Part shown: piece by piece, positions 21,707 to 38,784 of the stretch | Numbering within the stretch: the stretch's first letter is position 1 | How the letters are laid out: each line of letters starts with the position of its first letter | Source of the DNA: a virus | Taxonomy: Duplodnaviria > Caudoviricetes | Strand: one strand, 5' to 3' | Length of the DNA: 64,000 nt | IMG/VR virus record: IMGVR_UViG_3300024262_000013 | Made by a program: the position numbers and the translations under genes | Notes under the pieces: model-generated | The model's database searches: none | Told to the model about the DNA's origin: nothing | Seen by the model: the letters and a program-made list of their open reading frames with translations, nothing else

Positions 21707-22567
21707 TTACAGATTATGTAGCTTATTTGTTAGCTCGTAATATAATTTTTTGTACTTCCTCATTGATGTCCTTATCTCTTTAGTGGACATATTGGTCATA
21801 TCACGTAAAGATAATAGTATAATATTCTTGTTAAATTTGTTATTATCCGTACCAATAAAAATGTTACCATAGTTCTCAAATAACTCTATTAGTGCGTACC
21901 CTAACTTTAATTCGTTATTATTTAAATCGTTAGATTCTATATAATTCTCTAATTCTTTAATAAAGTGTCTAATTACATCTGTCGCATCTACTTTCTCATG
22001 TTCGAGATAATAAATCATATCAGGTCTACTTTCTAATTTAGTCGTGATATCTTCATAAGAAATTTTTCGATTCTGTTCTTTTTGGTCTTTTATAATCATA
22101 CCCATTAGGTAATTTTTACAAATAGTACCAAAATAAGAATACGCCTTTTTATTCCTTTCAGGTTTAAATTTTTCTACTTTAGTTATTAAAAATGAATGTG
22201 TATCATGATTAATTTCACGAAACTCCATACCTTTTCTATAAAGTTTATATCTACGAATGATTGATTCTATCATTTTATCTAAAGGTGTCCTTAGAAATTC
22301 ATTATATATTTCATTTTTTTCGGTATATGTAGAAGCCGTTAGAAATAATCTAACCGCTCTTTCTTCTCTCTCAGCAAAATAATTAGTGGGGCTTGGTTTT
22401 CTCCCCCTCTTTTTTGGTTCACTAGATTCGTCAGTCTCAGTACTACCCGACACTACCTCAGTAGTTACAGTGCTACCGGATACTAATTCAGTAGTTATGG
22501 TATTACCTGACACTACAATCTTAACTGATTCATCATTAGAAGTAGTGTTTTTGGGTTTTAATATCAT
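21707..22567 (-). CDS. phage sigma factor, T4 gp55-like (late transcription)
   Basis: FKPERNKKAYSYFGTICKNYL resembles sigma region 2 of gp55-type proteins; preceded by an NYF...helix region. Confidence 0.7.
   Translation of the reverse strand: MILKPKNTTSNDESVKIVVSGNTITTELVSGSTVTTEVVSGSTETDESSEPKKRGRKPSPTNYFAEREERAVRLFLTASTYTEKNEIYNEFLRTPLDKMIESIIRRYKLYRKGMEFREINHDTHSFLITKVEKFKPERNKKAYSYFGTICKNYLMGMIIKDQKEQNRKISYEDITTKLESRPDMIYYLEHEKVDATDVIRHFIKELENYIESNDLNNNELKLGYALIELFENYGNIFIGTDNNKFNKNIILLSLRDMTNMSTKEIRTSMRKYKKLYYELTNKLHNL
22441..22520 (-). repeat. 30-nt degenerate tandem repeat (about 2.7 copies)
   Basis: Encodes VVSGNTITTE-LVSGSTVTTE-VVSGST in the sigma factor N-terminus. Confidence 0.8.
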
Positions 22568-23373
22568 TAAACATCCATTACTTGATAGTTTATGTCTCTA
22601 TCCTCAATAAAAAAATGTTCTTTTTTAGCGGTATCTATCCAAAACGCAACTTCGTCCTCAGTTATTTTTTTCTCACCAAATTTGTAATTCCAAAAAATTC
22701 CTCCTTCTCTCATGTTCATATGTTTATATCCAATTCTTGGTATTGTCATAATATTTACTGAATTATAACTCAGTCTTAGTAGGAACTCATATACAAAAGT
22801 TAATTTCATAGATTTTTTAAATCCGCCAAAGTCATTAAATATTGATTTCTTAATTACTATTCCACTTGTTTGAAAATTTTGATAGTTTAATAAAACTTCA
22901 TTTGTTAAGTAACCAATTTCAGAATTCATATTAGCTGCAAAGGTTGCTTCATTTGTGAATCCAGCAAAAACTCCTTTCTCGTCTACATCAAGAACTAAAG
23001 GTAGAAACCCTGAAACCTCTGGGTAAGCTTCCATATATCTTTTAACGTTTTTAAACCATATTGATGCGTATTCATCATCAAATTCAATTAATGAAACCCA
23101 TTCATTTTTAGCGTTTTCAACACCTAAATTTACTTGAGACGCAAAATCAACATCTCCAGTGTTTTCTACCAAATTCACTGTAAGACCACTGTAGTTGAAA
23201 TTTTGTACTACTTCTTTTAACGATTCTTCATCGCTGTGTACAATAACTAACTCATCAATCGGTGTTGATTGTTTTGCTATTGATAGGATACAACTACTAA
23301 AAAAATCTACAAAATTTTTAACTTTCGATGAGTTGATAGGTAGTATCGCCGATACATTTAATTTATTTTCCAT
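22567..23373 (-). CDS. glycosyltransferase family 2 (GT-A)
   Basis: VSAILPI, FASQVNLGVENAKNEWVSLIEFDD (DxD-like), and a C-terminal EFLLRL...IPRIGYKH segment. Confidence 0.85.
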   Translation of the reverse strand: MENKLNVSAILPINSSKVKNFVDFFSSCILSIAKQSTPIDELVIVHSDEESLKEVVQNFNYSGLTVNLVENTGDVDFASQVNLGVENAKNEWVSLIEFDDEYASIWFKNVKRYMEAYPEVSGFLPLVLDVDEKGVFAGFTNEATFAANMNSEIGYLTNEVLLNYQNFQTSGIVIKKSIFNDFGGFKKSMKLTFVYEFLLRLSYNSVNIMTIPRIGYKHMNMREGGIFWNYKFGEKKITEDEVAFWIDTAKKEHFFIEDRDINYQVMDV

Positions 23374-23378
23374 AATTA

Positions 23379-24443
23379 TTAATTTTCTTCTTCTACTTTA
23401 AGTTTATCTAATTGAGATTCGAATGTAACTTTTCTAATATCTAAGTAACCCGTGAAGGTATTTATGACGTTAGACTCGAACTCTTCTCTGTTTTGAAATT
23501 TATTAGCGGTTTCTAAACCTACGGTATATAACTCTTCATTTATATTATCCTCTAACCAATTTTGAGTGAATTCAGCAATAATGTCAGTCATCTGATTTAA
23601 CTCATATGTCCATATCCCATTATTCTCTAACATCCATTCAGGTTTTAAGTTAGGTACCTTACCAATTACAGGTGTTTTACTTGCCATAGATTCAAGTGGG
23701 AAAGTACCTACCGATGACGTGTCGTCTACCCATATAGAAACAAATGAGTCCTTTAGGTACTCTGCGAACTCTTCTTGATTAAGACCTCTCATATCTCTAA
23801 ATGTTACCCATCTAAATTGTGGGTATTTTAAATAAAAGGTTTTAATTATTTTCATCGTATCCCTCTGTTCACGAGTATGTATAGAAATAATTGGTTTAGA
23901 TGGGACTTCTTTAGGTGAAAATATTTCAGAAATGAAAGGTGGAATAATATCAAATGTGACATTTTTCATAACACTCTTAACATATTCTGTCTGTTTTTCA
24001 CTTGTAGTGATAGCCTTTAAGAAACCATATTGTGACCAAGTGGTACCTGGTTGAAGTGTTTCTAACATATGGTCATACGCTTGACAAGAAATAATTTTAC
24101 CACAAGGTAAATTTGATACTTGCTCTAATACGTGACCGTATATTTCAGGAACGACCATAAAATCCTCAGGAGAAATTTTTAAATTTTCTCCATCAATAGA
24201 TTCGTGAGGTAATTCCATATATTTCTTACCTAACCATTCAGAAACTCCCGTATATTCTTTTGTTTCATGAATTATGATTGGATTAAATCCGTTATTTTTA
24301 AGAGTTAAGGCAATCTCATAAGTTTGTCTTACGGATGCCCTAGCATTACCCTTAGTATCTTGTGTTAAAAAATAAATTCTAACTGATTTATCTTTTAATC
24401 TCTGAACTGATTGTTCAACTTTATTTAATAGTTCTGTGTTCAT
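23379..24443 (-). CDS. glycosyltransferase, GT-B (GT4-like)
   Basis: C-terminal SVGTFPLESMASKTPVIG donor-binding motif; N-terminal PEIYG...QAYDH. Confidence 0.75.
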   Translation of the reverse strand: MNTELLNKVEQSVQRLKDKSVRIYFLTQDTKGNARASVRQTYEIALTLKNNGFNPIIIHETKEYTGVSEWLGKKYMELPHESIDGENLKISPEDFMVVPEIYGHVLEQVSNLPCGKIISCQAYDHMLETLQPGTTWSQYGFLKAITTSEKQTEYVKSVMKNVTFDIIPPFISEIFSPKEVPSKPIISIHTREQRDTMKIIKTFYLKYPQFRWVTFRDMRGLNQEEFAEYLKDSFVSIWVDDTSSVGTFPLESMASKTPVIGKVPNLKPEWMLENNGIWTYELNQMTDIIAEFTQNWLEDNINEELYTVGLETANKFQNREEFESNVINTFTGYLDIRKVTFESQLDKLKVEEEN

Positions 24444-24446
24444 AAT

Positions 24447-24749
24447 TTAAATATATTTTATAATTCCGTGTCTTAATAAGGTATTAAATGCAATTTTAAA
24501 GGGAATACTTAAACTCTTTGAAGTTCCACGTATACCTAAATTATTATCTAATTCTTCTCTTTCGGTTAATACAACCTCTAACATCATTTTTATTGTTTCA
24601 AATTTTACAACACTAATATGTTGTAAAAATTTATCTTCATCTTTATCTTCAGAAATTACCACTTCTTCATTATCTGACTTTGGTATGTTAACTTGTGACT
24701 CTAAAGATTCAAAATCAACGTAATAGTTCTCACCTAAAAATTGTAACAT
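24447..24749 (-). CDS. hypothetical protein (100 aa)
   Basis: Tightly packed ORF within the operon. Confidence 0.7.
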   Translation of the reverse strand: MLQFLGENYYVDFESLESQVNIPKSDNEEVVISEDKDEDKFLQHISVVKFETIKMMLEVVLTEREELDNNLGIRGTSKSLSIPFKIAFNTLLRHGIIKYI

Positions 24750-25399
24750 TATTTTAATTTTAATTTTTTATATAGTTCTTTAAATTCAACGATATCATTA
24801 ATACTATATTTCGATTTAACTTCTTCATTATATGATGTGGAGTACTTAATAACTGTTTTATTCTGTGGTTGTTCTATGATGTGATTTGGGTTTGCCGTAA
24901 TTAAAATATCCACCTCATCCCACATACTGTCTAATGTAATATTAGAATAGAATTTTATTTTTTCAACTAAACACCCATACTTTGATAGAAAAAATAATGT
25001 CGATGGTTTAGACTTACCAATTTCATCAGACACGATTATCACTTCATGGTTATCTCTTAAGGTTTCGTATATATCATTTAAAACATTAAATGTGGGTCCG
25101 CTGATAGACGGTGAATGACCAAAAATTTGCATGGCGAAATCAACGTAGAAAAAATCATATAAATCTTCTTTATTTTTAAATTTAAAGTGATTTATTAGAT
25201 TATCTAAAGATTTTACCGGTAAATCTAGTTCGTATTTAAAAGTGTCTTTATCTCCTTTTTCATCGAATTCTTCAGTTTCTTCATTATAAGTTAATGTGTT
25301 CTCATCTTCAAACTCATCAATATAATATTTTTGATATATTTGTTCCGCTTTTAAAAAAGTGTCTCTTAGTACTCCGTTAATGTCAAATGCTATTCTCAT
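24749..25399 (-). CDS. HAD-family 5'(3')-deoxyribonucleotidase-like protein
   Basis: RIAFDINGVLRD (DxxGVL motif I), VIIVSDE, and K...DILITANP pattern. Confidence 0.7.
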   Translation of the reverse strand: MRIAFDINGVLRDTFLKAEQIYQKYYIDEFEDENTLTYNEETEEFDEKGDKDTFKYELDLPVKSLDNLINHFKFKNKEDLYDFFYVDFAMQIFGHSPSISGPTFNVLNDIYETLRDNHEVIIVSDEIGKSKPSTLFFLSKYGCLVEKIKFYSNITLDSMWDEVDILITANPNHIIEQPQNKTVIKYSTSYNEEVKSKYSINDIVEFKELYKKLKLK

Positions 25400-26100
25400 G
25401 TGTCGTATCTATCTAATATTTTAGTTATTAATGGATTACGTATAATGTCCTCATTTTTAAAGTTAAACGTACCAACTTTTTCCATATCTTTAAATCTCAT
25501 GGTAGCGTCATATAATCCTGATTGGGTCTTATCACGATACCTATCTGTCTGGTCAATATCTCCAGAAATAAAAAATTTACTATTAAATCCTATTCGTGTT
25601 AATAGTAATTTCATTTGACTCGGTGTTGAGTTTTGAGCTTCCTCAAAGATTAATAACGAGTTATCAATATTCATACCTCTCATATATGCTAAGGCAAAAA
25701 CTTCAATTATATCGTTTTCCTTTAATTTCTCTCTAACTTCTTTACCTATGATTTTATTTAATAAATAATATGAAGGGAAAATATAGGGGTCTAATTTTTC
25801 TTCGAGATTACCAGGTAATGCTCCTAATTTTTCTTCTGCCTCGACCGCGGGTCTAACAATTATAATTTTTTCATAAGAATTATCTGTTTCCATTAAAAGC
25901 TCTACAGCTGCTTTCATCGCTATATATGATTTACCAACACCTGCTGGTCCGGTACAGATTGTTATCTCACTTGATTTTAATATATTATAGTACTCTTTTT
26001 GACTTTCAGATAAAAACTTTTGTTTAGGGTTTTTAGTTATTATTTTATTAATTAAATCTTTTCTCGGTATTTTATTATTCGTCTCTACTTTTCTTGCCAT
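25396..26100 (-). CDS. phoH: PhoH-like ATPase
   Basis: GPAGVGKS Walker A, RPAVEAEEKLGALPG, AYMRGMN, EEAQN and SGDIDQTD motifs. Confidence 0.95.
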   Translation of the reverse strand: MARKVETNNKIPRKDLINKIITKNPKQKFLSESQKEYYNILKSSEITICTGPAGVGKSYIAMKAAVELLMETDNSYEKIIIVRPAVEAEEKLGALPGNLEEKLDPYIFPSYYLLNKIIGKEVREKLKENDIIEVFALAYMRGMNIDNSLLIFEEAQNSTPSQMKLLLTRIGFNSKFFISGDIDQTDRYRDKTQSGLYDATMRFKDMEKVGTFNFKNEDIIRNPLITKILDRYDT

Positions 26101-26120
26101 TATTATATATAATTTAAATT

Positions 26121-27116
26121 TTATTTTTGATGATTAAATCCGGTCCAGTATTCAATCATTTCATCTAACATACTCTCAAATGTGTAGTTAGGCGACCAAT
26201 TAGTTTTTTCTCTTAATTTACTATTATCTCCCTTTAAATCTTTTAATTCTTCAGGTCTAAAATATTTATCATTAACTTTAACATATTCCTCTACATTTAG
26301 TTCTAGTTTATTAAATACGTATTCAACTAAGTCTTTAACTGAGTGTGATACCCCTGTAGAACATATAAAGTCATCTGGTTCGTCTTGTTGTAATATTAAC
26401 CACATAGCTTCGACATAGTCTTTTGCGTGTCCCCAGTCTCTTGTTGCATCCATATTACCTAATACTAACTCACTTCTAAGTCCTTTTTTAATTTCAACGG
26501 CAGTTTTAACCACTTTATTAGTGACAAAATTAGTACCTCTTCTTGGTGACTCATGATTAAATAAAATTCCATTTGAAATAAACATCCCATATGAGTTACG
26601 GTAATTTTTTGAAATATTATAGGCAAAAACTTTTGAACACCCATAAGGCGAAACTGGACTCATCGGAGTATTTTCTCGTTGGTAACCATCATCATCAGTA
26701 TTGTTTCCAAACATTTCAGATGAAGAAGCTTGGTATATTTTAATGGTTGGGTCAATTAATTTTACGGACTCTAATAGGTTGAGTGTACCAATAGCGGTAA
26801 CATTAGCGGTATATATCGGTTGGTCAAAAGATATTCTTACGTGTGACTGAGCAGCTAAGTTATAAATCTCATCAGGTTTACATTTTTGTATTATCCTTAT
26901 TAGTGAGGATAAATCAGTCATATCAACATACTCTAAGTTATCCTTTATTAACTCATAAGATTTACCTAAACGATTAGTTTGGTTTTCTGAAACTGAATTA
27001 CGTTTTACTGTTCCCCAAACTTCGTATCCTTTTTGTAATAAAAATTCAGCTAAATAGGAACCATCTTGACCATTAATTCCGGTTATTAAGGCAACTTTAT
27101 TTTCTCGTTGTTTCAT
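26121..27116 (-). CDS. gmd: GDP-mannose 4,6-dehydratase
   Basis: ITGINGQDGSYLAE, LAAQSHVRISF, YQASSSEMFG, SPYGCSK, NHESPRRG and RDWGHAKDYV motifs. Confidence 0.97.
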   Translation of the reverse strand: MKQRENKVALITGINGQDGSYLAEFLLQKGYEVWGTVKRNSVSENQTNRLGKSYELIKDNLEYVDMTDLSSLIRIIQKCKPDEIYNLAAQSHVRISFDQPIYTANVTAIGTLNLLESVKLIDPTIKIYQASSSEMFGNNTDDDGYQRENTPMSPVSPYGCSKVFAYNISKNYRNSYGMFISNGILFNHESPRRGTNFVTNKVVKTAVEIKKGLRSELVLGNMDATRDWGHAKDYVEAMWLILQQDEPDDFICSTGVSHSVKDLVEYVFNKLELNVEEYVKVNDKYFRPEELKDLKGDNSKLREKTNWSPNYTFESMLDEMIEYWTGFNHQK

Positions 27117-27993
27117 AATTTTGTTTAAACCAATCTACCGTTTCTTTTATTCCGACTTCGATAGGGGTGAATTTAAAATCGGGTAAGTACTTTTTTATTT
27201 TTGAGTTGTCTGAAGGTTTTCTGAATTGACCTTCAGGTTTATCGGTATTAAAAATTACTTTACCCTTAAAGTTAAACTCGTTTACTAATAAATCAACTAG
27301 TTCTTTAATTGAAATCTCTTCTGAGGTAGTAAGTATTATTGGTTCGTCTTCATTATACTCATTTAAAACCCATTCGGTTAGTTTAGCAATATCTTTTGAA
27401 TAGATGAATTCTCGTAGAGGATTGCCTGAACCCCAAACCTCAAACGGAGTATTATTTTTTTGAGCTAAATACATTTTATGTATTAACATAGGCATAACAT
27501 GACCGTGTTCTAAAGAAAAATTATCATTAGGTCCATAAATATTTGTTGGTATTACTGATTTATATTGTAACCCGTATTGTTCTCGATAGGCCCTAATTTG
27601 TATGTCAGCCATTCTTTTTGCATAAGCATAAGCATTATTAGAGGTGTGAGGTTCACCCAAATGTATTTTATCTTCAGTTAATGGATAATCAACTTCATTA
27701 GGAAAAACACAGGTGGATAAAAAGGTTACTAATTTTTTTACACCACTCAATCTCGCTTGTTCAATGACGTTAGTATTCATCATAATATTATCGTAAAAGT
27801 ACTCACCTTTATACTTCATATTAGAACCTAACCCACCAACTTTAGCTGCGGTGTGAATCACTTCTTTCGGGTTATAAAACTTAAACATTGATTTTACGCT
27901 TTCACTATTTCTTAAGTCAAAATGTTGAGTGGAAATTTTTACATCTCCCTTTAATGATGAACCTACTAATCCATTTCCAGTTATTAATCTCAT
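27097..27993 (-). CDS. fcl: GDP-L-fucose synthase (epimerase/reductase)
   Basis: HTAAKVGGL, FLSTCVFP, YAYAKR, PTNIYGPNDNF and WGSGNPLREFIYSKD motifs. Confidence 0.95.
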   Translation of the reverse strand: MRLITGNGLVGSSLKGDVKISTQHFDLRNSESVKSMFKFYNPKEVIHTAAKVGGLGSNMKYKGEYFYDNIMMNTNVIEQARLSGVKKLVTFLSTCVFPNEVDYPLTEDKIHLGEPHTSNNAYAYAKRMADIQIRAYREQYGLQYKSVIPTNIYGPNDNFSLEHGHVMPMLIHKMYLAQKNNTPFEVWGSGNPLREFIYSKDIAKLTEWVLNEYNEDEPIILTTSEEISIKELVDLLVNEFNFKGKVIFNTDKPEGQFRKPSDNSKIKKYLPDFKFTPIEVGIKETVDWFKQNYETTRK

Positions 27994-28810: not shown

Positions 28811-28832
28811 AATTATAATTTTAATTCTAACC

Positions 28833-28863
28833 TAAATGTACTATACTATTTAAAAATCTCAAT
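28833..28863 (-). promoter_or_regulatory. host-sigma-type promoter candidate for the leftward sugar/PhoH/sigma operon
   Basis: ATTG-N19-TACATTTA on the - strand. Confidence 0.4.
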
Positions 28864-28919
28864 TGTTTGTTTATTTTTATAACTAAATTAATAACTTATA
28901 GTATATAAAACAACATAAT

Positions 28920-32627: not shown

Positions 32628-33308
32628 ATGAAAAATATTAAAAATAATCCAATAGATTATTACATAGAAAAAATAAATAATAAAGATAATTTCTCATTTA
32701 CTCGATGGGGTGATGGGGAATGGTTTTGTTCAATGGGTGTGCCAGGTCAAAATTGTGATGGTCATAAATATTTTCCTGAAATGAGGAAATCACTCAATAC
32801 CGCGTTAAATAACGATAAAGGATATTATAAAGCGATATGGAACTTAGACCATGGTCAAATAAAAAATATACTTCATATGTTATTACCATTTATAAAAAGT
32901 AATAATATTGACCTTAAATGGGTTAATGCGGGAATATGGGAAGATGCCGCATTAAGTGGTCAGTTAAGTCCATTAGTTAAATCCTTAGAAAGTAGAAATT
33001 TTGTTATTGTGTCAAGTGATAAGTTAAAGAAAATAGATATTAAATATACTGATTTTGTTAGTGTACCTCCAGTTAATTGTTTTTTAGATAAAGAAAGAAT
33101 TAAAAACGATATGATAAAAATGACAGAAAAATACGATGATGTAGTCTTTGGGTTATCATCCTCTATGGCTACTAACGTCATTGTAGATGAACTTTATGAC
33201 TTAATTGGGGATAAGTGTACTATGATTGATTTTGGTTCAATATGGGACCCCTTTGTAGGTCATATGGGTAGGAAATATCATAAAGAATATAAAAAAACAA
33301 ATTTATGA
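32628..33308 (+). CDS. GT-D-fold-like glycosyltransferase
   Basis: FSFTRWGDGE N-terminal motif and IDFGSIWD C-terminal motif. Confidence 0.6.
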   Translation: MKNIKNNPIDYYIEKINNKDNFSFTRWGDGEWFCSMGVPGQNCDGHKYFPEMRKSLNTALNNDKGYYKAIWNLDHGQIKNILHMLLPFIKSNNIDLKWVNAGIWEDAALSGQLSPLVKSLESRNFVIVSSDKLKKIDIKYTDFVSVPPVNCFLDKERIKNDMIKMTEKYDDVVFGLSSSMATNVIVDELYDLIGDKCTMIDFGSIWDPFVGHMGRKYHKEYKKTNL

Positions 33309-34012
33309 TAAATTGTAACCCCTATGGTGGTATTTCTAATAGGATGAAATGTATTATATCCTCTATAGTAAAACATGGAGGTATAAATCTTAGATGGGAT
33401 GTACCTAAAAGTGGTGGTGGGGTTAGATGTAAGTTTAATGATTTATATAAAAATATTTATAATGGTAATGCCATAGGTAGTGTATCTGACTGCAAATTTA
33501 TTCATCCTCAAATGAATACACATAATGAAGGAGGTAAAGATAAGTTACCTATTGACCTTAAAAAAAGATATATTGAAGTTATCAAAACTTTAGAACCTAT
33601 CGATTATATTTCAAATAAAATTAAAGAAGAGAAAGAAAAGTTAGGTGAATATTGTGCAGTTAGCGTTAGAACTTTTAGAAGTTTTCCTGCAGAATATAAC
33701 TCATGGGGTAGACATTTTAAAATAGATAACCTTTTTAGGGTAATGGATGAAATTGAAAGTAAAATTTTATTAACCTGTGATGATACTGAGACAACAAATT
33801 TAATTAAACAAAGATATGATGTTTACACTACGCCTAAAAGAACCAAATTTGGAGATTTTACTACTGTGGAAGGTATGCAAGATATATTAATAGACCAATA
33901 CTTAGGTAGTTTATCAACAGATATTTATGGTACGAATATGAGTAGTTTTTCTGAAATGCAGTGGTGGTTAGGACAATGTAAACCTAATTATCATGAAATG
34001 AAATTACATTAG
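33305..34012 (+). CDS. fucosyltransferase-like GT-B protein (NodZ/GT23/POFUT-type motifs)
   Basis: GGISNRM, AVSVRT, LLTCDD and DQYL...YGTNMSSFS correspond to conserved fucosyltransferase motifs. Confidence 0.65.
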   Translation: MINCNPYGGISNRMKCIISSIVKHGGINLRWDVPKSGGGVRCKFNDLYKNIYNGNAIGSVSDCKFIHPQMNTHNEGGKDKLPIDLKKRYIEVIKTLEPIDYISNKIKEEKEKLGEYCAVSVRTFRSFPAEYNSWGRHFKIDNLFRVMDEIESKILLTCDDTETTNLIKQRYDVYTTPKRTKFGDFTTVEGMQDILIDQYLGSLSTDIYGTNMSSFSEMQWWLGQCKPNYHEMKLH

Positions 34013-34021: not shown

Positions 34022-34867
34022 CTATCTTCTTGATGGGTGTAACCACATATTTTTTGAGTCATTAAGTAATTTCTCGTAGTCGTTATAACCATACACTTTT
34101 GAACCAGATAATTTTTCCAACCATGAACCTGTTTTCCAAACTCCCCTATCTTTAGACATACAATTAGGGCAATTATAGATAAAAACATCACCACCAAAAT
34201 AGGAGGGTATAACTGCATCACCCGCAGCTGTTATATGATGTAATGAATTAGATAATATCATAAATTGAACTTCATTATAATTTTTATCAGTTTGAGATAA
34301 TAGTGTCTCAATATCAATTACCGAAGGGTATTTTTTTAAAACCTCTTTATCCCCAATATCTACTGTGGTTTGTCCGTTATCTCTTTGTAGTTTGAACTTA
34401 TCAGGATTATCGGGTGGTCTTATATAAACGATTTGATAATCTTTTTCAAAGGATTTAATTATTTTTTCTAATATTTCACTATTGAAATAATTATGAGGAT
34501 GAGTCATCCATTCTTTAGTGTTTTTATTATTTATAGTTAATATTGGTTTTGTGTAAGTATACTCGTCATTTTTATAAAATTCTTTGAATGGCGGTGGAGA
34601 CCAATTATCATTAACAAATTTAGGTCCTTGAATATTATAACAGGCGGTATTATGTTCTTCTGTTAAAATTTTAGCTAAAATTGGTGGGTCAAAATGTTTA
34701 TTTTCTTCTTTATGGTTTGGGGAAAAATAAAATACCGGTTTAGTACCAATTTTACTTGAAGTCGATTTTAATTTTCCCTCTAAATATTGATGATATGCCA
34801 CAGGTGCGTAATACCATAAAATATAACCAAACTCATCAAACGCTTCTATATTAGGATTATTTTTCAC
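34022..34867 (-). CDS. hypothetical glycan-locus protein (possibly GT-B-like)
   Basis: Clean ORF with EFGYILW and IVYIRP; context among glycosyltransferases. Confidence 0.6.
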   Translation of the reverse strand: MKNNPNIEAFDEFGYILWYYAPVAYHQYLEGKLKSTSSKIGTKPVFYFSPNHKEENKHFDPPILAKILTEEHNTACYNIQGPKFVNDNWSPPPFKEFYKNDEYTYTKPILTINNKNTKEWMTHPHNYFNSEILEKIIKSFEKDYQIVYIRPPDNPDKFKLQRDNGQTTVDIGDKEVLKKYPSVIDIETLLSQTDKNYNEVQFMILSNSLHHITAAGDAVIPSYFGGDVFIYNCPNCMSKDRGVWKTGSWLEKLSGSKVYGYNDYEKLLNDSKNMWLHPSRR

Positions 34868-36263
34868 TATATTGTTTTATTTTTCTTTTGTTATGTCTTT
34901 CTAAAACTGTTTTATGTAATTCTCCCATATTTTGTCTAGCTGAAGTGGAGACTGAACCTTTACCTTCACTTTCATGGTGGTAATAAATAAATAATCCTTT
35001 AGGTATTCTTTTACCAATAAAACCAGCGTCCATCATTTGTACCCATAAATCATAATCAACCCAACCTTTCATTTCAGTATTATACCCTTCTATTGATTCA
35101 TATGCTTCACGAGAATACATAGAACTGTTAACAATAAATGGTCCTTGTAAGAGTCTTTCTTTTGACCACTCAGGTCTTTTTTCTAATCCTTGCATTTCCC
35201 CAACGTGTACAGTATCACAATATACGGGACTTATCTTAGGATTTTTCTTTATAATATTAACTCCTGTTTTAAGATAACCCGGATGAATCATATCATCAGC
35301 ATCTAAAGGTAGTATGTATTCACCTTTACCTTCTCTAACCGCCACATTTCGCGTATCGGAAACTCCCGTATTTTCTTTATGTATAATTCGTACACCTTCC
35401 TGTCCTTCTAATGAATCTAATTTCATTAAACAGTATTGGTCATCTGAACCATCATTAACTAAAGTAATTTCAAAATTAGTATAATCTTGATTATAAACTG
35501 ATTGTAAAGTAGGGTTTAATCTTTTGGCGTAATTATAAATTGGCATCGCTAATGTAACTAATGGTTCACCTTTCTTTATTGGTTTTTTATTAAATTTAGT
35601 TGGTAAAAGTATTGGTAATTTATCTTCGTACATACTTAAGAATTTTAACCTATTATTTTCCCATTTATCGTTCGTTTGACCTATTGATAAGTGAGTAATT
35701 CTCACATCATAAAATACCCCAATTTTAACTCCACTAATAAAATTTTTAAAACTAAATCCTAAATCATAGAAATGAAACCCATCAAAAGATTCGTCAAATT
35801 TATGTTTTATCTTAGTTTTGTCTAACGCAATAAAAAGACCGTCAACTATAACGGTATCGTCTAATTTACTACCTTTTGATTCACTATATTGATTAGTCCA
35901 TTTTTTTTCATCTTGTTGGTGATTAACGATACCTAACATCTCTTCCGTTATTTCCCACCACCTTGCAGATTTAGGAAAAAATTTAGTGCCCGCAACCCCT
36001 AAAATTCCATATTCAGGATTTCTTTTAAAGTGCTTTAATACTTTGTTACCCCAATTCTTTTTTTCAAAATATAAATCATCATGGCATAGTACGACAATGT
36101 CATTATTCGCTTTTTCTAAAATTATGTTATATACTTCACTTAAGGAGTGTGTGCCTGGATTTTCAAAAGGAATTACTTCCACTTTATGAACACCGCAAGA
36201 CTTTTCAATATAATCTCTAAATTCGGGGTTAATTTTTTTTGTACTATATCCTATTGTTATCAT
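34857..36263 (-). CDS. bifunctional glycosyltransferase with two GT-A domains
   Basis: N-domain has LCHDDL, VDGLFIA and FHFYDL; C-domain has LVNDGSDD, GVSDTRN and LPLDADD. Confidence 0.88.
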   Translation of the reverse strand: MITIGYSTKKINPEFRDYIEKSCGVHKVEVIPFENPGTHSLSEVYNIILEKANNDIVVLCHDDLYFEKKNWGNKVLKHFKRNPEYGILGVAGTKFFPKSARWWEITEEMLGIVNHQQDEKKWTNQYSESKGSKLDDTVIVDGLFIALDKTKIKHKFDESFDGFHFYDLGFSFKNFISGVKIGVFYDVRITHLSIGQTNDKWENNRLKFLSMYEDKLPILLPTKFNKKPIKKGEPLVTLAMPIYNYAKRLNPTLQSVYNQDYTNFEITLVNDGSDDQYCLMKLDSLEGQEGVRIIHKENTGVSDTRNVAVREGKGEYILPLDADDMIHPGYLKTGVNIIKKNPKISPVYCDTVHVGEMQGLEKRPEWSKERLLQGPFIVNSSMYSREAYESIEGYNTEMKGWVDYDLWVQMMDAGFIGKRIPKGLFIYYHHESEGKGSVSTSARQNMGELHKTVLERHNKRKIKQYSEK

Positions 36264-36274
36264 TAAAATCTACA

Positions 36275-36874
36275 TTAATTTCCTGTCGAACCAAAACCAT
36301 TTTCATTACGGTCTTTATTTTCGATATCTTTAACTCTTTTTAGAGTAACATCTCTACCTTGTATAACAGGACAAATCACTGCTTGAGCGATTTTATCGCC
36401 AAACTCAATAGTCTGAGAGTTAGGACTAAGATTAATTAATATCACTTTAATTTCTCCCGTGTACCCCTCATCAACAGTTCCTGGTGTGTTAAGAACAGTT
36501 AAACCTTTATTTAAAGCTAATCCACTTTTAGGTCTTATTTGTATCTCACACCTTTTAGGTACATTAATATGTAATCCTGTTGATACTAACTTTCTATCAA
36601 AGGGTTCTAACTTTACCTTTTCATTTGCTCTTAAATCAAATCCTGAATCACTACCATAGTGGTATTTAGGTTCGGGATTAATTGATTTGTATGTGTATTC
36701 GACTTGTGTTGATTCAAATTCAGTAGGAGAGAACGATTTTTCTAATTCATCGTAATCAATACCAAAAGACTCCATCATCGCCTTAGGGTCTGTCATATCC
36801 ACATCACTAAGTTGTTTTTGAATGTCTTTTAATTTGGACATATCATTTTTTAATTCGTTAAATTTCTTAAACAT
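36275..36874 (-). CDS. dut: trimeric dUTPase with an N-terminal extension of about 55 aa
   Basis: SGFDL, RPKSGLA, GTVDEGYTGEI, IAQAV and RNENGFGSTG motifs. Confidence 0.95.
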   Translation of the reverse strand: MFKKFNELKNDMSKLKDIQKQLSDVDMTDPKAMMESFGIDYDELEKSFSPTEFESTQVEYTYKSINPEPKYHYGSDSGFDLRANEKVKLEPFDRKLVSTGLHINVPKRCEIQIRPKSGLALNKGLTVLNTPGTVDEGYTGEIKVILINLSPNSQTIEFGDKIAQAVICPVIQGRDVTLKRVKDIENKDRNENGFGSTGN

Positions 36875-36877
36875 ATC

Positions 36878-37579
36878 TTATTTTAAATTATAAATTTTTC
36901 TAATTAATTTTACTAACACATTAACATCTTTTTCACAGTAATCTGATATCGGCAATAAACCATTAGAATTCCAATATGTGTCATGAACTAAATTACCGGT
37001 AATTTCACCTGTTTTAGGACTTTCAATACCCATAGAAATACACATTAAATCTAATGATGATATACCAAAATTATTACCGAATTGCCATATATCTTTAGTA
37101 TCTAAAGCTTTAACCTCCCAAGGTTTAGTCTCATATGAAGGTAATAATTTAGGTGGTAATATACCATTGGTTAAAAATCTTTTACCTAACGTAGGTATAT
37201 CAAAAAACTTAATATTATGACCACATAGGTAAAAATCTAATTTATCTACTTTATTTAATAAATCTCTAACTTTAAGTAATAATTCCTTTTCATCGTCTTC
37301 GGCGAATGTTTGAGTATGAACGTCATCGTTTGGGGTAATAAATGAAAATGACGCAACAATTATTTTAGAGAACTCAGCAACTAATGCTGCTTTATTAATA
37401 AAAATTTCTTCAGGAGTTTTCCCTTCTTGGTCAGGATATTTCCTAATAAACCAATCTAAGTAACTTTCAAAAAGTCTGGCTAATTCTGGTCTATTTTTCT
37501 TTAGTGTTGGTAAATCTTTCTCGACTCCGACAGTTTCTAAGTCAAAAAATAAAAGTTTGTTTAATGGTAAGTCTATCAT
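36878..37579 (-). CDS. stand-alone PolB-related DnaQ-like 3'-5' exonuclease
   Basis: FFDLETV, GHNIKFFDIP and YCEKDV are Exo I, II and III motifs. Confidence 0.85.
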   Translation of the reverse strand: MIDLPLNKLLFFDLETVGVEKDLPTLKKNRPELARLFESYLDWFIRKYPDQEGKTPEEIFINKAALVAEFSKIIVASFSFITPNDDVHTQTFAEDDEKELLLKVRDLLNKVDKLDFYLCGHNIKFFDIPTLGKRFLTNGILPPKLLPSYETKPWEVKALDTKDIWQFGNNFGISSLDLMCISMGIESPKTGEITGNLVHDTYWNSNGLLPISDYCEKDVNVLVKLIRKIYNLK

Positions 37580-38784
37580 TTTGTTATTGTTTTATATATT
37601 TCAGCTCTTGTTTTTGTTACATTATTTAAATCATAAGTATCTTTTACGGTTTCATATAGTCGTTCCCCTAAATCTTCTGCCCATGATGGGTTTTTAACTA
37701 ACTTCTTGATATGTTTAGCCCAATCAGAATGATTTCTACTCTCATCGACCAATAAAGCGTTACCATCTACAAATTCACCATATTTAAGCGCGTGCTTTAA
37801 GTCAATCGTATAAGGTCCTATATTAGAAGCTATAATTGCTTTTTTATAAAATCCCGCCTCTATCACTTTTAACTGTGATTTCATTCTATTAAAGATATGA
37901 TTTTTAATGGGAGCTAAAGAAACGTCAAATTTAGCATAATTTTTAGCGTATGACGTAACAGGTTGTGTCCAAACTCTATGATAGTATTTTTCATCATTAT
38001 ATGGTTGTTGTTTATACGCTAATAAATATTTTTTATATTCTTCAGATACGTCATCATGACTTCTCGTAAATATTTTTTCATACTCAGCCCAAACAGTTTC
38101 TTCAGGTTTTATATCCCTTTGTTTTTGTTTCTTTGTTTCTTTATCAATCTCAGTTACCGTACCTCTAATATCAAAACCACACAAATATAATTCATATTGT
38201 TCTTTTAATGTACCTAATTTACTAAAACAGTCATCTAATATTTTTAAATCATGTAAGTGAGATGACCCACCTAACCATCCGAATCTAAGCTTATCTGACG
38301 GTTCTGTCTTATGTTTAAATTGAGGCTCATTTGGATTAATCGCGTTGGGGAGAACAAAAACATTTTTATTAAATTTTTTAATTTCTTGTGCAAATAATTT
38401 AGTGGTGGTTGTAACATATTGAGCGGCTTTAAGATTATTTCTAATTTTTAAATGTAGCCCCGAATTAACAATCATATCGTGAGCTGGATGTTCTTTAGTT
38501 GGTAACCAATAGTCATCGATGTCTGCCACGGTCACAATTCCCCATTTATGTAATTTCTCTAATAGAGCTGGGGTACCATCATAATCTTTAGTAATGGTTC
38601 TATGGAAATGAACCATATCATAATTTTTCCAATAATTATCATCATCGACTCTAGGTTCATAATCAATATCTACATGGAAATCGTTTGGATTTTGATTTTG
38701 TAAAAAAATGTGGGGTTCGACTGAACGAAATTTACCTACTCCCGTTCTATCGGATGGTAATACTAATACTCTTATCTTTGACAT
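37576..38784 (-). CDS. glycosyltransferase, GT-B (GT4-like)
   Basis: DIDDYW, FGWLGGSSHLHDL, FNRMKSQLKVIEAG and IASNIGPY motifs. Confidence 0.85.
   Translation of the reverse strand: MSKIRVLVLPSDRTGVGKFRSVEPHIFLQNQNPNDFHVDIDYEPRVDDDNYWKNYDMVHFHRTITKDYDGTPALLEKLHKWGIVTVADIDDYWLPTKEHPAHDMIVNSGLHLKIRNNLKAAQYVTTTTKLFAQEIKKFNKNVFVLPNAINPNEPQFKHKTEPSDKLRFGWLGGSSHLHDLKILDDCFSKLGTLKEQYELYLCGFDIRGTVTEIDKETKKQKQRDIKPEETVWAEYEKIFTRSHDDVSEEYKKYLLAYKQQPYNDEKYYHRVWTQPVTSYAKNYAKFDVSLAPIKNHIFNRMKSQLKVIEAGFYKKAIIASNIGPYTIDLKHALKYGEFVDGNALLVDESRNHSDWAKHIKKLVKNPSWAEDLGERLYETVKDTYDLNNVTKTRAEIYKTITK

What the first reader, a model, noticed from the sequence alone, without database searches (positions are those of the whole stretch)
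22567..38784. A ~16 kb phage-encoded glycan system: donor synthesis, decoration and about 9 transferase-like domains
Seen: Gmd, Fcl, an NDP-sugar dehydrogenase, a DegT aminotransferase, a GNAT, a sulfotransferase-like gene, and GT-A, GT-B, GT-D-like and fucosyltransferase-like genes. No Wzx/Wzy/ABC exporter, undecaprenyl priming transferase or obviously membrane-spanning protein was recognised, so the system looks cytoplasmic. Known: chloroviruses and mimiviruses make their own NDP-sugars to glycosylate virions, and some mycobacteriophages glycosylate capsids with a few GTs. Inference: a giant-virus-scale autonomous glycosylation pathway in a tailed phage, most plausibly for virion proteins. 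DNA or host-surface modification are alternatives.
Basis: partly seen in the sequence, partly recalled or inferred. Interest (0 to 1): 0.82.

Follow-up and report, generated by a model that had tools for sequence, protein, structure and literature searches.

The report
Marine jumbo-phage glycan gene cluster
A large uncultured marine phage carries about ten sugar-transferring enzyme domains and a swappable set of genes that make unusual activated sugars; similar clusters are already published in cultured cyanophages, and what the sugars are attached to is still unknown.

Summary
Window 22567-38784 encodes Gmd, an Fcl-like synthase, a two-domain 'short' NDP-sugar dehydrogenase, a DegT aminotransferase, a GNAT fused to a GT-A-like domain, a weak sulfotransferase-like protein and ten GT-like domains. 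Five unrelated genes are interleaved: PhoH, dUTPase, an exonuclease and two unknowns. No gene has a membrane segment. All are under purifying selection, and the arrangement recurs in independent marine metagenomes, so it is not a chimera.

Relatives share a fixed core of six GT genes around a mosaic donor-sugar cassette. Gmd+Fcl (L-fucose) is replaced by a GDP-mannose 3,5-epimerase (L-galactose/L-gulose) in sister phages. The GNAT's fusion partner and the second domain of the double GT also change.

The system is not autonomous, because no GDP-mannose or PAPS supply was found. It is not unprecedented either: cyanophage S-SCSM1 has a comparable ~17 kb Gmd/Fcl/epimerase/fucosyltransferase/GT cluster, and 'moraphages' have four core GT families.

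The target is unresolved. Phage protein is most likely, host envelope glycan second and DNA least likely. The cluster sits in the replication/nucleotide module and lacks the late-promoter-like motif of the virion genes.

The scan noted sister loci before, on other DNA (e1-5336461, e1-5336468).

The parts
22567..23373 (-). GT2-family (GT-A) glycosyltransferase, 268 aa. Lineage core gene.
   Evidence: PF00535 33.2 bits against GA 23.3. Present in 11 of the related loci. dN/dS 0.04-0.07.
23379..24443 (-). GT-B, GT4-like glycosyltransferase, 354 aa. Lineage core gene.
   Evidence: No Pfam or PHROG hit. A profile of six orthologs hits PDB 8xsg, the Actinobacillus AmGGT glucosyltransferase (PMC12159676), at E 1.4e-10 over residues 46-335. 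Atlas neighbours are GT1/GT4 clusters at 0.98-0.99.
24447..25399 (-). Two unknown core ORFs of 100 aa and 216 aa. No glycan function is shown.
   Evidence: No family at E<=10 beyond noise. Conserved in relatives. dN/dS is 0.06-0.09 for the 216-aa ORF and 0.17-0.48 for the 100-aa ORF.
25396..26100 (-). PhoH-like ATPase. Not a glycan gene; interleaved core gene.
   Evidence: PF02562 217.8 bits.
26121..27116 (-). GDP-mannose 4,6-dehydratase (Gmd). Part of the variable cassette.
   Evidence: PF16363 399.6 bits over profile 1-332/332; TIGR01472 404 bits against a cut-off of 415. Present only in L001/L002 and L006 among relatives.
27097..27993 (-). GDP-L-fucose synthase-like SDR (Fcl) with a shortened N-terminal region. 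Part of the variable cassette.
   Evidence: NF047922 229 bits against a cut-off of 500, aligned 20-294 to 32-306/308. TGNGLVG, STC, YAYAK and HGH are readable. dN/dS 0.03.
27995..28810 (-). Short two-domain NDP-sugar dehydrogenase homolog, 271 aa. It lacks the C-terminal nucleotide-sugar-binding domain.
   Evidence: PF03721 and PF00984 only; TIGR03026 176.5 bits against 189.8, covering profile 67-295/413. GIVGNGFVG and GGTCFPKD are present. dN/dS 0.04-0.06. The 120 closest metagenomic clusters listed (270-304 aa) have the same two-domain make-up.
28811..28919 (.). Divergent intergenic region between the dehydrogenase operon (-) and the DegT cassette (+).
   Evidence: The only sizeable gap inside the block. 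It has no TATTTAT motif. An independent marine contig spans it, X2 record 11 at 28005-33360.
28920..30101 (+). PLP-dependent sugar 4-aminotransferase (DegT family), closest to CalS13-type enzymes.
   Evidence: PF01041 239 bits. PDB 4zwv/4xau 390 bits, CalS13 (4zas) 355 bits, ArnB 115 bits. PseC model 200 bits, below its cut-off of 423.
30102..30506 (+). GNAT acetyltransferase domain, the N-terminal part of the 375-aa fusion protein.
   Evidence: Four GNAT Pfam models above GA, residues 2-135.
30552..31226 (+). GT-A-like domain, the C-terminal part of the fusion. Paralog of 31939-32607.
   Evidence: BLASTP 36% identity, E 4e-32, to 31939-32607. Not related to the sulfotransferase-like protein.
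31243..31917 (+). Sulfotransferase-like P-loop protein, 224 aa. The assignment is tentative.
   Evidence: PF00685 22.9 against GA 22; PF13469 23.9 against GA 27. The ortholog profile hits cytosolic sulfotransferases only at E about 0.07, among noise. RHPxD is conserved, but the 5'-PSB lysine is absent (GGTGSR).
31939..32607 (+). GT-A-fold transferase, 222 aa, from an un-named family with an invariant E-D-D-Y motif.
   Evidence: AF2 pLDDT 93.2. VIA Z 15-16 to SpsA, WrtF fucosyltransferase, TarS and TarP; GlmU 15.1. BFVD and AFDB hits are GT2-like or rhamnan-synthesis-F-like. Invariant residues are listed.
32628..33308 (+). GT-D (DUF1792)-like transferase, 226 aa. Lineage core gene.
   Evidence: Atlas 0.94-0.96 to GT-D/GT-D-like clusters. 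The profile's top PDB hit is 5v4a, a DUF1792 glycosyltransferase, at E 0.018. R-x-G-D-G-E is invariant. No Pfam hit.
33305..34012 (+). Fucosyltransferase-superfamily-like protein, 235 aa. Lineage core gene.
   Evidence: Atlas 0.95-0.97 to O-FucT/FUT8/NodZ clusters. hhalign to the S-SCSM1 O-FucT gives E 2e-4, aligning VSVRT with VHVRR and GTxMSSFSE with GTYLSTFSK. GGISNR aligns with GGFGNR of the NodZ-like gene. No Pfam or PDB sequence hit.
34022..34867 (-). GT-B, GT9 (heptosyltransferase)-like protein, 281 aa, from an un-named family.
   Evidence: AF2 pLDDT 94.6. VIA Z 14.4-14.6 over 230-235 residues to WaaC, WaaF and 3tov; TibC 12.6; the next matches score about 10-12. It has 447 homologs, often fused to GT2, WbsX or methyltransferase domains.
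34857..36263 (-). Double GT-A protein, 468 aa: Glyco_tranf_2_5 (residues 26-212) plus Glycos_transf_2 (residues 236-450). Lineage core gene whose second domain is swappable.
   Evidence: PF13712 92.5 bits and PF00535 101.3 bits. In L010, L013 and L014 the ortholog is 549-551 aa; in L010 the second domain is confirmed as GT4 (PF13439).
36275..37579 (-). dUTPase and a PolB-type 3'-5' exonuclease. Not glycan genes; they sit in the same operon.
   Evidence: TIGR00576 142 bits. PF10108 33.7 bits.
37576..38784 (-). GT-B glycosyltransferase, 402 aa. Lineage core gene.
   Evidence: phrog_7162 153 bits. Weak PF13692/PF00534 hits. Homologs at 25-35% identity occur in a 735-kb phage and in Phapecoctavirus and Klebsiella phages. 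In ESCO13 the homolog sits in a four-GT row next to the primase/helicase and Pol I genes.

Best explanation
The block is the glycan locus of a lineage of large (about 300 kb) marine tailed phages.

A fixed core of six soluble glycosyltransferase genes (seven to eight GT domains) assembles a hetero-oligosaccharide in the cytoplasm of the infected cell. A recombining 'donor cassette' between PhoH and the GT-D gene decides which rare activated sugars go into it.

In this phage the cassette does the following:
- Gmd and Fcl turn host GDP-mannose into GDP-L-fucose, presumably for the conserved fucosyltransferase-like enzyme.
- A second branch (short dehydrogenase, CalS13/ArnB-like 4-aminotransferase, GNAT) makes an N-acetylated 4-amino sugar. 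The GT-A-like domain fused to the GNAT probably transfers it directly.
- A sulfotransferase-like protein may decorate the product.

Sister phages swap Gmd+Fcl for a GDP-mannose 3,5-epimerase (L-galactose/L-gulose in place of L-fucose) and exchange other modules. The glycan therefore varies like a serotype.

The most likely acceptor is one or more phage proteins, ending up on the virion.

Shown: gene identities, solubility, the core/variable architecture, purifying selection, and presence in independent samples. Inferred: the pathway order, the sugar identities beyond GDP-fucose, and above all the acceptor.
For: - Enzyme assignments.
- No membrane segments, and no priming transferase or flippase.
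- Core against cassette: GT2_268, the GT4-like gene, GT-D, the FucT-like gene, the double GT2 and the 402-aa GT-B occur in essentially all related loci that cover their position. Gmd, Fcl, the short dehydrogenase, DegT, GNAT, the sulfotransferase-like gene, the GT-A-like gene and the GT9-like gene are patchy.
- The 360-aa SDR that replaces Gmd+Fcl in L004/L007 scores 306 bits to Arabidopsis GDP-mannose 3,5-epimerase.
- The GNAT is found alone, fused to the sulfotransferase-like domain, or fused to the GT-A-like domain. The second domain of the double GT is either GT2 or GT4.
- Recombination patches: dS against the nearest relative jumps to 0.7-1.7 in PhoH, Gmd and the GT9-like gene, while neighbouring genes are at about 0-0.16. 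Metagenome assemblies break at the same places, and one brine population lacks 29.9-33.5 kb.
- Purifying selection acts on all genes.
- GT2-family domains were found only in this block in the partial genomes searched.
- For a protein acceptor: lineage-wide conservation argues for a role in the phage's own biology. Several GT types here have protein-glycosylating members (GT-D in serine-rich-repeat adhesins, O-FucT-like, TibC-type GT9); this is my own knowledge of those families. The DNA route lacks its prerequisite enzymes.
Against: - No acceptor is identified.
- The cluster is not in the virion module. It is co-operonic with dUTPase, an exonuclease, PhoH and a sigma-like gene.
- None of its 25 neighbouring gene starts carries the TATTTAT motif found upstream of 16 of the 34 other genes.
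- No Ser/Thr-rich tail like those of glycosylated mycobacteriophage capsid or tail-tube proteins is seen on the virion proteins in the window.
- The amino-sugar branch lacks a decarboxylase or a matching 4,6-dehydratase in this phage.
- The short dehydrogenase lacks its substrate-binding domain.
- The sulfotransferase and FucT assignments rest on weak evidence.
- The phage is uncultured and its host unknown.
Confidence: 0.45

Rival explanations
1. Host envelope remodelling. The soluble GTs and donor enzymes feed the host's own lipid-carrier, flippase and polymerase (or general O-glycosylation) machinery. LPS, capsule or surface glycoproteins of the infected cell are altered, for example to block superinfection or to stop progeny adsorbing to debris. 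This is the 'cell wall synthesis and modification' reading used for cyanophage clusters.
For: - The enzyme types (GT2, GT4, GT9 heptosyltransferase-like, fucosyltransferase-like, Gmd/Fcl, DegT/GNAT) are those of O-antigen and capsule loci. Such GTs are normally soluble or peripheral.
- Module shuffling resembles O-antigen locus variation.
- This is the published interpretation of the closest analogues (PMC9602691, PMC12801897).
- Expression outside the late class would suit it.
Against: - No priming transferase, flippase, polymerase or any membrane protein was found.
- Six GT genes are lineage-core in an apparently lytic jumbo phage, which is unusual for a dispensable host-modification function (four core GT families in moraphages, PMC12619734).
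- It would need tight compatibility with each host's lipid-linked intermediates.
Confidence: 0.25
2. DNA hypermodification. The GTs glycosylate phage DNA bases to evade restriction, and the cassette variation is driven by an arms race with nucleases.
For: - The cluster is embedded in the nucleotide-metabolism and replication region (dUTPase, exonuclease, PhoH; PolB at 44409-47240) and lacks the late-type motif.
- Homologs of the 402-aa GT-B sit in a four-GT row beside primase/helicase and Pol I in Phapecoctavirus ESCO13.
- Phage DNA can carry diverse glycans (bioRxiv 10.1101/2023.12.21.572611).
Against: - No hydroxymethylase was found. The only thymidylate-synthase-family gene in relatives is a bona fide ThyA (TIGR03284 282-311 bits against a cut-off of 108).
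- No Tet/JBP dioxygenase and no C5-methyltransferase were found. The genomes are only 21-66% complete, and the Tet control was silent.
- ThyA plus dUTPase argue for ordinary thymidine.
- Ten GT domains, GDP-sugars, an acetamido sugar and a possible sulfate go far beyond any DNA glycan that I know of.
- The GT-A model found generic GT2-like proteins, not the JGT-like DNA transferases.
Confidence: 0.12
3. Another cytoplasmic acceptor. The enzymes glycosylate a host protein (take-over or toxin-like modification) or build a soluble glycoconjugate or small molecule.
For: - All enzymes are soluble.
- The closest solved relatives of the aminotransferase are natural-product sugar enzymes of the CalS13 type.
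- The GT9-like fold includes the protein heptosyltransferase TibC.
- The timing appears to be early or middle.
Against: - Ten GT domains imply a sizeable oligosaccharide, not a single regulatory sugar.
- Serotype-like cassette exchange suggests an exposed product.
- No scaffold-biosynthesis genes lie nearby.
Confidence: 0.08

Closest known systems
Cyanomyovirus 'LPS / cell-wall synthesis and modification' clusters: Synechococcus phages S-SCSM1 (PMC9602691) and S-SCSM2R (PMC12801897). P-SSM2 is cited from my own knowledge.
   Same: Tailed marine phages with a contiguous 15-20 kb block. The block holds Gmd, Fcl and/or GDP-mannose 3,5-epimerase, fucosyltransferase-like genes and many GT2/GT4 genes, with no flippase or polymerase. 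The target is unknown.
   Different: A different phage lineage; the terminase is about 24-26% identical to those of Flavobacterium phages and cyanophages. This block adds the DegT/GNAT amino-sugar branch, the short dehydrogenase, the sulfotransferase-like gene and GT-D-like and GT9-like genes. It lacks methyltransferases, MPI and 2OG oxygenases. Here the GT core is interleaved with dUTPase, an exonuclease and PhoH.
Moraphages: 200-307 kb aquatic jumbo phages with predicted Bacteroidota hosts (PMC12619734)
   Same: Estimated genome size of about 310 kb (G001 is 162 kb at 52% completeness). Shared core content includes PhoH, dUTPase, a sigma factor, PolB and a contractile tail. Four core GT orthogroups are reported. 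A glutamine-synthetase-like gene is present in relative G002.
   Different: Membership was not tested by phylogeny. Moraphages were found mostly in fresh water, whereas this phage is marine or from brine. No DnaK was found. The paper does not describe the donor cassette or its swaps.
Chlorovirus and mimivirus virion glycosylation machineries (own knowledge; review PMC7019647 listed)
   Same: Virus-encoded Gmd/GMER-type donor synthesis plus soluble cytoplasmic GTs that act independently of host membrane machinery. Amino-sugar acetyltransferase-GT combinations also occur.
   Different: Those are eukaryotic giant viruses with the glycans demonstrated on the capsid or fibrils. Here there is no evidence on the product or the acceptor.
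Mycobacteriophage virion O-glycosylation (Freeman et al. 2023, as cited in PMC12619734)
   Same: A tailed phage with its own GTs acting on phage proteins in the cytoplasm.
   Different: Those phages have one to a few GTs located in the structural operon, and the acceptors are C-terminal tails of the capsid and tail-tube subunits. Here there are ten GT domains outside the virion module and no such tails are seen.
Phage DNA glycosylation: T4 alpha/beta-GT and MT/5mYOX-associated GTs (bioRxiv 10.1101/2023.12.21.572611)
   Same: GT-A and GT-B enzymes encoded beside replication and nucleotide-metabolism genes.
   Different: Those systems need a hydroxymethylpyrimidine-forming enzyme next to the GT or elsewhere in the genome. 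None was found here.
NDP-aminopentose / Ara4N-type pathways: CalS8-CalS9-CalS13 and Ugd-ArnA-ArnB (pathway roles from my own knowledge)
   Same: An NDP-sugar dehydrogenase homolog paired with a 4-aminotransferase. The transaminase's best solved relatives are CalS13-type (355-390 bits), followed by ArnB (115 bits). N-acylation follows.
   Different: No decarboxylase is present in this phage. The dehydrogenase lacks its C-terminal domain. The nucleotide carrier is unknown.

Membership tests
GDP-mannose 4,6-dehydratase (Gmd) | Full-length match to the family models at or above the curated cut-offs | tested here: met
   PF16363 399.6 bits (GA 27), profile 1-332/332. TIGR01472 404 bits, just under its equivalog cut-off of 415.
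GDP-mannose 4,6-dehydratase (Gmd) | Extended-SDR cofactor and catalytic motifs (Gly-rich loop, YxxxK) | tested here: met
   TGINGQDGSY and YGCSK can be read in the translation.
GDP-L-fucose synthase (Fcl/GMER) | Score above the curated equivalog cut-off over the full length | tested here: not met
   NF047922 229 bits against 500. The first ~31 profile positions are replaced by a shorter N-terminus. It is still the best-scoring model by far, and it is under strong purifying selection (dN/dS 0.03).
GDP-L-fucose synthase (Fcl/GMER) | NADPH loop, Ser-Tyr-Lys triad and the Cys/His epimerisation pair | tested here: inconclusive
   TGNGLVG, STC, YAYAK and HGH are present by eye. Their equivalence to E. 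coli C109/H179 comes from memory and was not aligned here.
UDP-glucose/GDP-mannose dehydrogenase family | Three-domain architecture: NAD-binding N domain, central domain with the catalytic Cys, C-terminal nucleotide-sugar-binding domain | tested here: not met
   Only PF03721 and PF00984 match. The protein ends ~18 residues after the central domain. The same holds in the 120 closest relatives listed. It is a two-domain offshoot; its activity is unknown.
DegT/DnrJ/EryC1 sugar aminotransferases | End-to-end match to PF01041, with close characterised relatives | tested here: met
   PF01041 239 bits, 15-389 to 7-359/360. CalS13 (4zas) 355 bits over residues 4-393. No substrate-specific equivalog model is reached.
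Sulfotransferase (PAPS-dependent) | Family model above the gathering score, plus the 5'-PSB (PKxGTT-type Lys/Arg) and 3'-PB (RxPxD...S) motifs | tested here: inconclusive
   PF00685 22.9 against 22; PF13469 23.9 against 27. RHPID is conserved, but the loop reads GGTGSR without the Lys, and Ser is replaced. PDB profile hits are at E about 0.07, among noise.
GT-D (DUF1792) glycosyltransferases | Match to PF08759/PF22882, or to a solved GT-D, plus the metal-binding DxE motif | tested here: inconclusive
   No Pfam hit even at E<=10. The profile's best PDB hit is the DUF1792 GT 5v4a, at E 0.018 only. Atlas neighbours carry GT-D families at 0.94-0.96. G-D-G-E is invariant.
Fucosyltransferase superfamily (GT11/GT23/GT65-type GT-B) | The conserved motifs (N-terminal GGxxN, the HxRR-type Arg motif, C-terminal S-x-F-S/T) and a family-model match | tested here: inconclusive
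   No Pfam or PDB sequence match. hhalign to the S-SCSM1 O-FucT gives E 2e-4, probability 46%, with the Arg and GT..S.FS motifs aligned. GGISNR aligns to GGFGNR of a NodZ-like gene. Atlas 0.95-0.97. The His of HxRR is absent (VSVRT). The protein was not folded.
GT9 heptosyltransferases | GT-B fold closest to WaaC/WaaF, plus sequence-family membership | tested here: inconclusive
   Fold: Z 14.4-14.6, rmsd 3.4-3.6, 230-235 residues, clearly above the next matches. Sequence: no Pfam family. It works like a GT-B transferase; the donor is unknown.
GT-A (GT2-like) for 31939-32607 and the GNAT-fusion C-domain | GT-A fold with an acidic DxD-type motif after beta-4 | tested here: met
   pLDDT 93; Z 15-16 to SpsA, WrtF, TarS and TarP. 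E104-D105-D106 is invariant. A nucleotidyltransferase reading (GlmU Z 15.1, IspD) is not excluded.
Wzx/Wzy- or ABC-dependent polysaccharide locus | Initiating phosphoglycosyl transferase, flippase or exporter, and polymerase | tested here: not met
   None among the block ORFs. No TM segments. No Bac_transf or Polysacc_synt in five related records.
Phage DNA glycosylation system | A hydroxymethylpyrimidine-forming enzyme (dCMP/dUMP hydroxymethylase, or C5-MT plus Tet/JBP dioxygenase) in the genome | tested here: not met
   The only PF00303 genes are true ThyA. There are no PF12851 or PF00145 hits. Caveats: the records are 21-66% complete, and the PF12851 control was silent.
Mycobacteriophage-type virion glycosylation | GT genes inside the structural operon, and Ser/Thr-rich acceptor tails on capsid or tail-tube proteins | tested here: not met
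   The cluster lies outside the virion module and lacks the motif shared by virion genes. No virion ORF has a 30-residue window with 45% or more Ser+Thr. This lowers 'is of that type'; it does not lower 'glycosylates virions'.
Virion glycosylation in general | Glycan demonstrably attached to virion proteins | not testable with these tools
   This needs particles, which means glycoproteomics or lectin binding.
Moraphage lineage | Placement within the clade by marker-gene phylogeny or AAI | not tested
   Only the gene content and size agree (PMC12619734).

The most novel reading that the evidence does not exclude
The six-gene GT core builds a glycan coat on the virions of a whole lineage of marine jumbo phages. 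The recombining donor cassette works as a phage 'serotype switch': L-fucose against L-galactose/L-gulose, an acetamido amino sugar with or without sulfate, and GT2 against GT4 modules. This would be analogous to O-antigen variation in bacteria, selected by whatever recognises the particles (host defences, grazers, lectin-like receptors). It would include two enzyme families with no described activity: the two-domain 'short Ugd' and the E-D-D-Y GT-A family, which is fused here to a GNAT.
Probability: 0.3. Interest if true: 0.75.

Novelty: new member of a known kind. Interest (0 to 1): 0.42.

Why it matters
Large sugar-nucleotide-plus-GT clusters have been known in marine phages for some twenty years (own knowledge; recent examples PMC9602691 and PMC12801897). 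No experimentally assigned product or target was found in the papers read.

This lineage adds a clean comparative picture. An invariant GT core sits inside the replication operon. It surrounds a cassette that swaps chemically equivalent donors (GDP-L-fucose against GDP-L-galactose/gulose) and reshuffles domains. That argues the product is both important to the phage and under diversifying selection.

The phage is widespread: runs from 11 marine and brine studies hold the cassette. If the target were virions, it would extend virus-made glycan coats from giant viruses and mycobacteriophages to abundant ocean phages.

Without a host or particles, the finding does not make that question directly testable.

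Tried and rejected
- Nucleotide search against 50,697 phage records found nothing. The FucT-like and GT4-like proteins also have no tblastn match there.
- Single-sequence Pfam, PHROG and NCBIfam searches left nine ORFs or domains unnamed.
- 'The short dehydrogenase and Fcl are truncated pseudogenes left by a deletion'. Rejected: both keep their cofactor loops and catalytic motifs, dN/dS is 0.03-0.06, and the two-domain dehydrogenase is an abundant family. The two genes are in different frames, so a read-through fusion is excluded by the coordinates.
- 'The GNAT's C-domain is a second sulfotransferase', as in the sister-phage fusion. Rejected. It is a paralog of the GT-A-like ORF.
- 'DegT acts on the Gmd product (GDP-perosamine)'. 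Not excluded, but weakened. DegT is 95% identical in L004, which has no Gmd. DegT also occurs without any dehydratase in L013 and L014. Its nearest solved relatives are CalS13/ArnB-type.
- Chimeric assembly or host insert. Rejected.
- Ser/Thr-rich acceptor tails on virion proteins. None found. Only the sigma-like ORF has such repeats.
- JGT-like DNA GT-A. Not among the structural neighbours.
- DnaK as a moraphage marker. Absent.
- A ManC-type GDP-mannose pyrophosphorylase. Absent in relatives.
- No complex-prediction job was sent, because no specific binding pair is claimed.

Full report
**Context.** The window comes from a large, low-GC (about 32%) tailed phage.
- Terminase, portal and major capsid genes lie at 1.6-11.5 kb. 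A family-B DNA polymerase, an SNF2 helicase and a tail sheath lie at 44-58 kb.
- The nearest held record, an IMG/VR contig of 161.9 kb judged 52% complete, matches the whole of 22567-38784 colinearly at 95% identity. This implies a genome of about 300 kb.
- The terminase is only about 26% identical to those of Flavobacterium phages and about 24-26% identical to those of cyanophages.
- Runs from 11 marine, seawater and brine studies hold at least 55% of the 31-mers of 25400-34100. One independent study holds 87-93%.
- Contigs from those runs bridge PhoH-Gmd-Fcl-dehydrogenase, dehydrogenase-DegT-...-GT-D, and FucT-like-GT9-like-double GT-dUTPase.
- The block is therefore genuine phage DNA, not a chimeric insert.

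**Gene content.** Pfam and NCBIfam identify the following:
- a GT2 (22567-23373);
- PhoH;
- Gmd (404 bits to TIGR01472);
- an Fcl-like SDR (229 bits, with a shortened N-terminus);
- an NDP-sugar dehydrogenase homolog with only the N-terminal and central domains;
- a DegT aminotransferase;
- a GNAT at the front of a 375-aa protein;
- a marginal sulfotransferase match;
- a double GT2-type protein;
- dUTPase;
- a PolB-type exonuclease;
- a weak GT1 match, confirmed by phrog_7162 at 153 bits.

**The ORFs without a family.**
- *23379-24443.* A profile of six orthologs hits the solved GT4 glucosyltransferase AmGGT (8xsg; PMC12159676) at E 1.4e-10. This agrees with its atlas neighbours.
- *31939-32607.* With 36 homologs it folds at pLDDT 93 into a GT-A fold. 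Z is 15-16 to SpsA, the WrtF fucosyltransferase and TarS/TarP, and viral and cellular neighbours are GT2-like. E-D-D is invariant. A nucleotidyltransferase reading (GlmU, Z 15.1) is not excluded.
- *C-terminal 225 residues of the GNAT protein.* These are a 36%-identical paralog of that ORF (E 4e-32). They are not related to the sulfotransferase-like protein.
- *34022-34867.* It has 447 homologs, often fused to GT2, WbsX or methyltransferase domains. It folds at pLDDT 94.6. It matches the GT9 heptosyltransferases WaaC and WaaF at Z 14.6 over about 230 residues, clearly above the rest.
- *32628-33308.* GT-D-like on weaker grounds: atlas 0.94-0.96, a best PDB profile hit to a DUF1792 transferase at E 0.018, and an invariant R-x-G-D-G-E.
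- *33305-34012.* Fucosyltransferase-superfamily-like on atlas scores of 0.95-0.97 and on profile alignments to cyanophage O-FucT and NodZ-like genes, which line up the three family motifs. No family model or solved structure matches by sequence.

That makes ten GT-like domains. None of the block's glycan genes has a membrane segment. All block genes are under purifying selection against sister phages (dN/dS 0.02-0.2 for nearly all, up to about 0.5 for the two most divergent small ORFs).

**Comparative anatomy.** This is the most informative result. Eighteen related IMG/VR loci were fetched through the GT-D-like gene and compared gene by gene.
- *Core.* Six GT genes are present essentially wherever the locus covers them: the GT2, the GT4-like gene, GT-D-like, FucT-like, the double GT and the 402-aa GT-B. 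So are PhoH, two unknown ORFs, dUTPase, the exonuclease and a sigma-like gene.
- *Minimal forms.* In L003 and L010 these genes form one co-directional operon with no donor-synthesis gene at all.
- *Mosaic cassette.* Gmd+Fcl occur only in the window type and in L006.
- *Epimerase swap.* In L004 and L007 their place is taken by a 360-aa SDR that scores 306 bits to Arabidopsis GDP-mannose 3,5-epimerase. An L-fucose supply is thus exchanged for an L-galactose/L-gulose supply, while the FucT-like gene stays. L-fucose is 6-deoxy-L-galactose (textbook chemistry).
- *Other module changes.* The GNAT occurs alone, fused to the sulfotransferase-like domain, or (here) fused to the GT-A-like domain. L007 has an extra full-length dehydrogenase. 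L003 and L007 carry a DUF1919 gene. L014 has a cytidylyl/adenylyl-transferase-like gene. The double GT carries a GT4 instead of a GT2 second domain in L010, and its orthologs in L013 and L014 have the same enlarged size.
- *Orientation.* The central cassette (28920-34012) is inverted in the window relative to L014.
- *Recombination.* Against its nearest relative the window shows dS of 0.7-1.7 in PhoH, Gmd and the GT9-like gene, beside neighbours at about 0-0.16. Metagenome assemblies break at the same spots, and one brine population lacks 29.9-33.5 kb.

**Pathway reading.**
- *Secure.* Gmd followed by Fcl gives GDP-L-fucose from GDP-mannose (established biochemistry of these families).
- *Donor supply.* GDP-mannose must come from the host. 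No NTP_transferase gene is present in three related records.
However, DegT is 95% identical in a phage without Gmd, and it occurs in others without any dehydratase. Its closest solved relatives are 4zwv/4xau and CalS13 (355-390 bits), then ArnB (115 bits). From memory, these enzymes aminate NDP-4-keto-pentoses made by a dehydrogenase and a decarboxylase.
- *Fit and gaps.* That reading fits the divergent pairing of DegT with the dehydrogenase homolog. But no decarboxylase is present, and the dehydrogenase lacks its nucleotide-sugar-binding domain. This two-domain form is not a wreck: the 120 closest clusters listed, all 270-304 aa, share it. The branch is therefore left as 'an N-acetylated 4-amino sugar of unknown carrier'.
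- *Sulfation.* This is only a possibility.

**Target.**
- *DNA.* Relatives encode a true thymidylate synthase and no second family member. No Tet/JBP hit (control silent) and no C5-methyltransferase was found. These records are only 21-66% complete.
- *Classical polysaccharide locus.* There is no priming transferase, flippase or membrane protein. Soluble GTs could still feed host machinery, so this absence does not exclude envelope remodelling.
- *Simple virion reading.* The motif TATTTAT lies 13-47 nt upstream of 16 of the 34 genes outside 21707-41425. Many of these are virion genes. It lies upstream of none of the 25 genes inside that range (Fisher p 2e-5; chance expectation about 2 of 59). 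That this is a late-promoter motif is my inference, from its resemblance to the T4 late promoter and from the gp55-like sigma lead. Giant viruses express their glycan genes early (own knowledge), so timing is weak evidence either way. No virion ORF has a Ser/Thr-rich tail.
- *Ranking.* Phage protein or virion about 0.45, host envelope about 0.25, DNA about 0.12, other cytoplasmic acceptors about 0.08.

**Comparison with what is known.**
- Gmd is annotated in 84 phage records, mostly cyanomyoviruses.
- Cultured Synechococcus phage S-SCSM1 carries an adjacent set of Gmd, Fcl, GDP-mannose 3,5-epimerase, MPI, three fucosyltransferase-type genes, at least six GTs and methyltransferases. [quoted passage not shown]
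- S-SCSM2R has 13 GTs among 22 such genes (PMC12801897).
- Moraphages are 200-307 kb aquatic jumbo phages with predicted Bacteroidota hosts. They have four core GT orthogroups together with PhoH, dUTPase and a sigma factor (PMC12619734). The present lineage may belong to them or lie near them. This was not tested.
- The kind of system is therefore known, and 'giant-virus-scale, autonomous' overstates the case.
- What is additional here is the core-plus-cassette architecture with the fucose/galactose donor swap, the GNAT-GT-A fusion, and two un-named but abundant enzyme families.
- The scan's first readers had already flagged sister loci on other DNA.

**Verdict.** This is a real, well-conserved phage glycan locus and a new member of a known kind. 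It is moderately interesting, and the acceptor remains the open question.

Noticed in passing
window-wide; for example 3420-3426, 5308-5314, 54460-54475, 60405-60415: The motif TATTTAT (often ATATTTATAA) lies 13-47 nt upstream of 16 of 59 gene starts, against a chance expectation of about 2. The genes include portal, sheath and other virion-module genes. It resembles the T4 late promoter in reverse composition and may be read by the sigma-like gene at 21707-22567.
   Followed up: partly
window 21707-22567 (-): A sigma-70 region-2-like ORF (weak: PF04542 E 0.036; TIGR02937 E 0.0025) has an N-terminal run of VSG[NS]T[IV]TTE-type repeats that is 50% Ser/Thr. Its start overlaps the stop of the GT2 gene at base 22567.
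   Followed up: partly
window 27995-28810 (-): The two-domain 'short' UDP-glucose/GDP-mannose-dehydrogenase homolog belongs to a large metagenomic family. The 120 closest clusters listed are 270-304 aa long, 71-96% identical, and all lack PF03720. They sit on contigs of up to 316 kb. No activity is known to me for this form.
   Followed up: partly
window 48700-50262 (-): A 520-aa ORF has complete Fe/Mn superoxide dismutase N and C domains (residues 47-236), followed by about 280 residues with no family match.
   Followed up: no
window 25400-26500 and 34000-34900: PhoH/Gmd and the GT9-like gene are recombination patches. dS to the 95%-identical relative is 0.7-1.7, against about 0-0.16 in neighbouring genes. 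Metagenome contigs break or diverge here. In one brine run, depth is about 0 over 29.9-33.5 kb.
   Followed up: partly
L023 (Escherichia phage ESCO13, NC_047770.1 about 105.1-108.2 kb): Phapecoctavirus carries a row of four annotated GT genes directly beside DNA primase/helicase and Pol I. Two of them are homologs of the window's 402-aa GT-B. I found no paper that explains their role.
   Followed up: no
It was not examined further.
   Followed up: no
G002:C1:180941-181345: A relative encodes a glutamine-synthetase-like gene (PF00120, 41.6 bits). This is an auxiliary gene also reported in nine moraphages.
   Followed up: no
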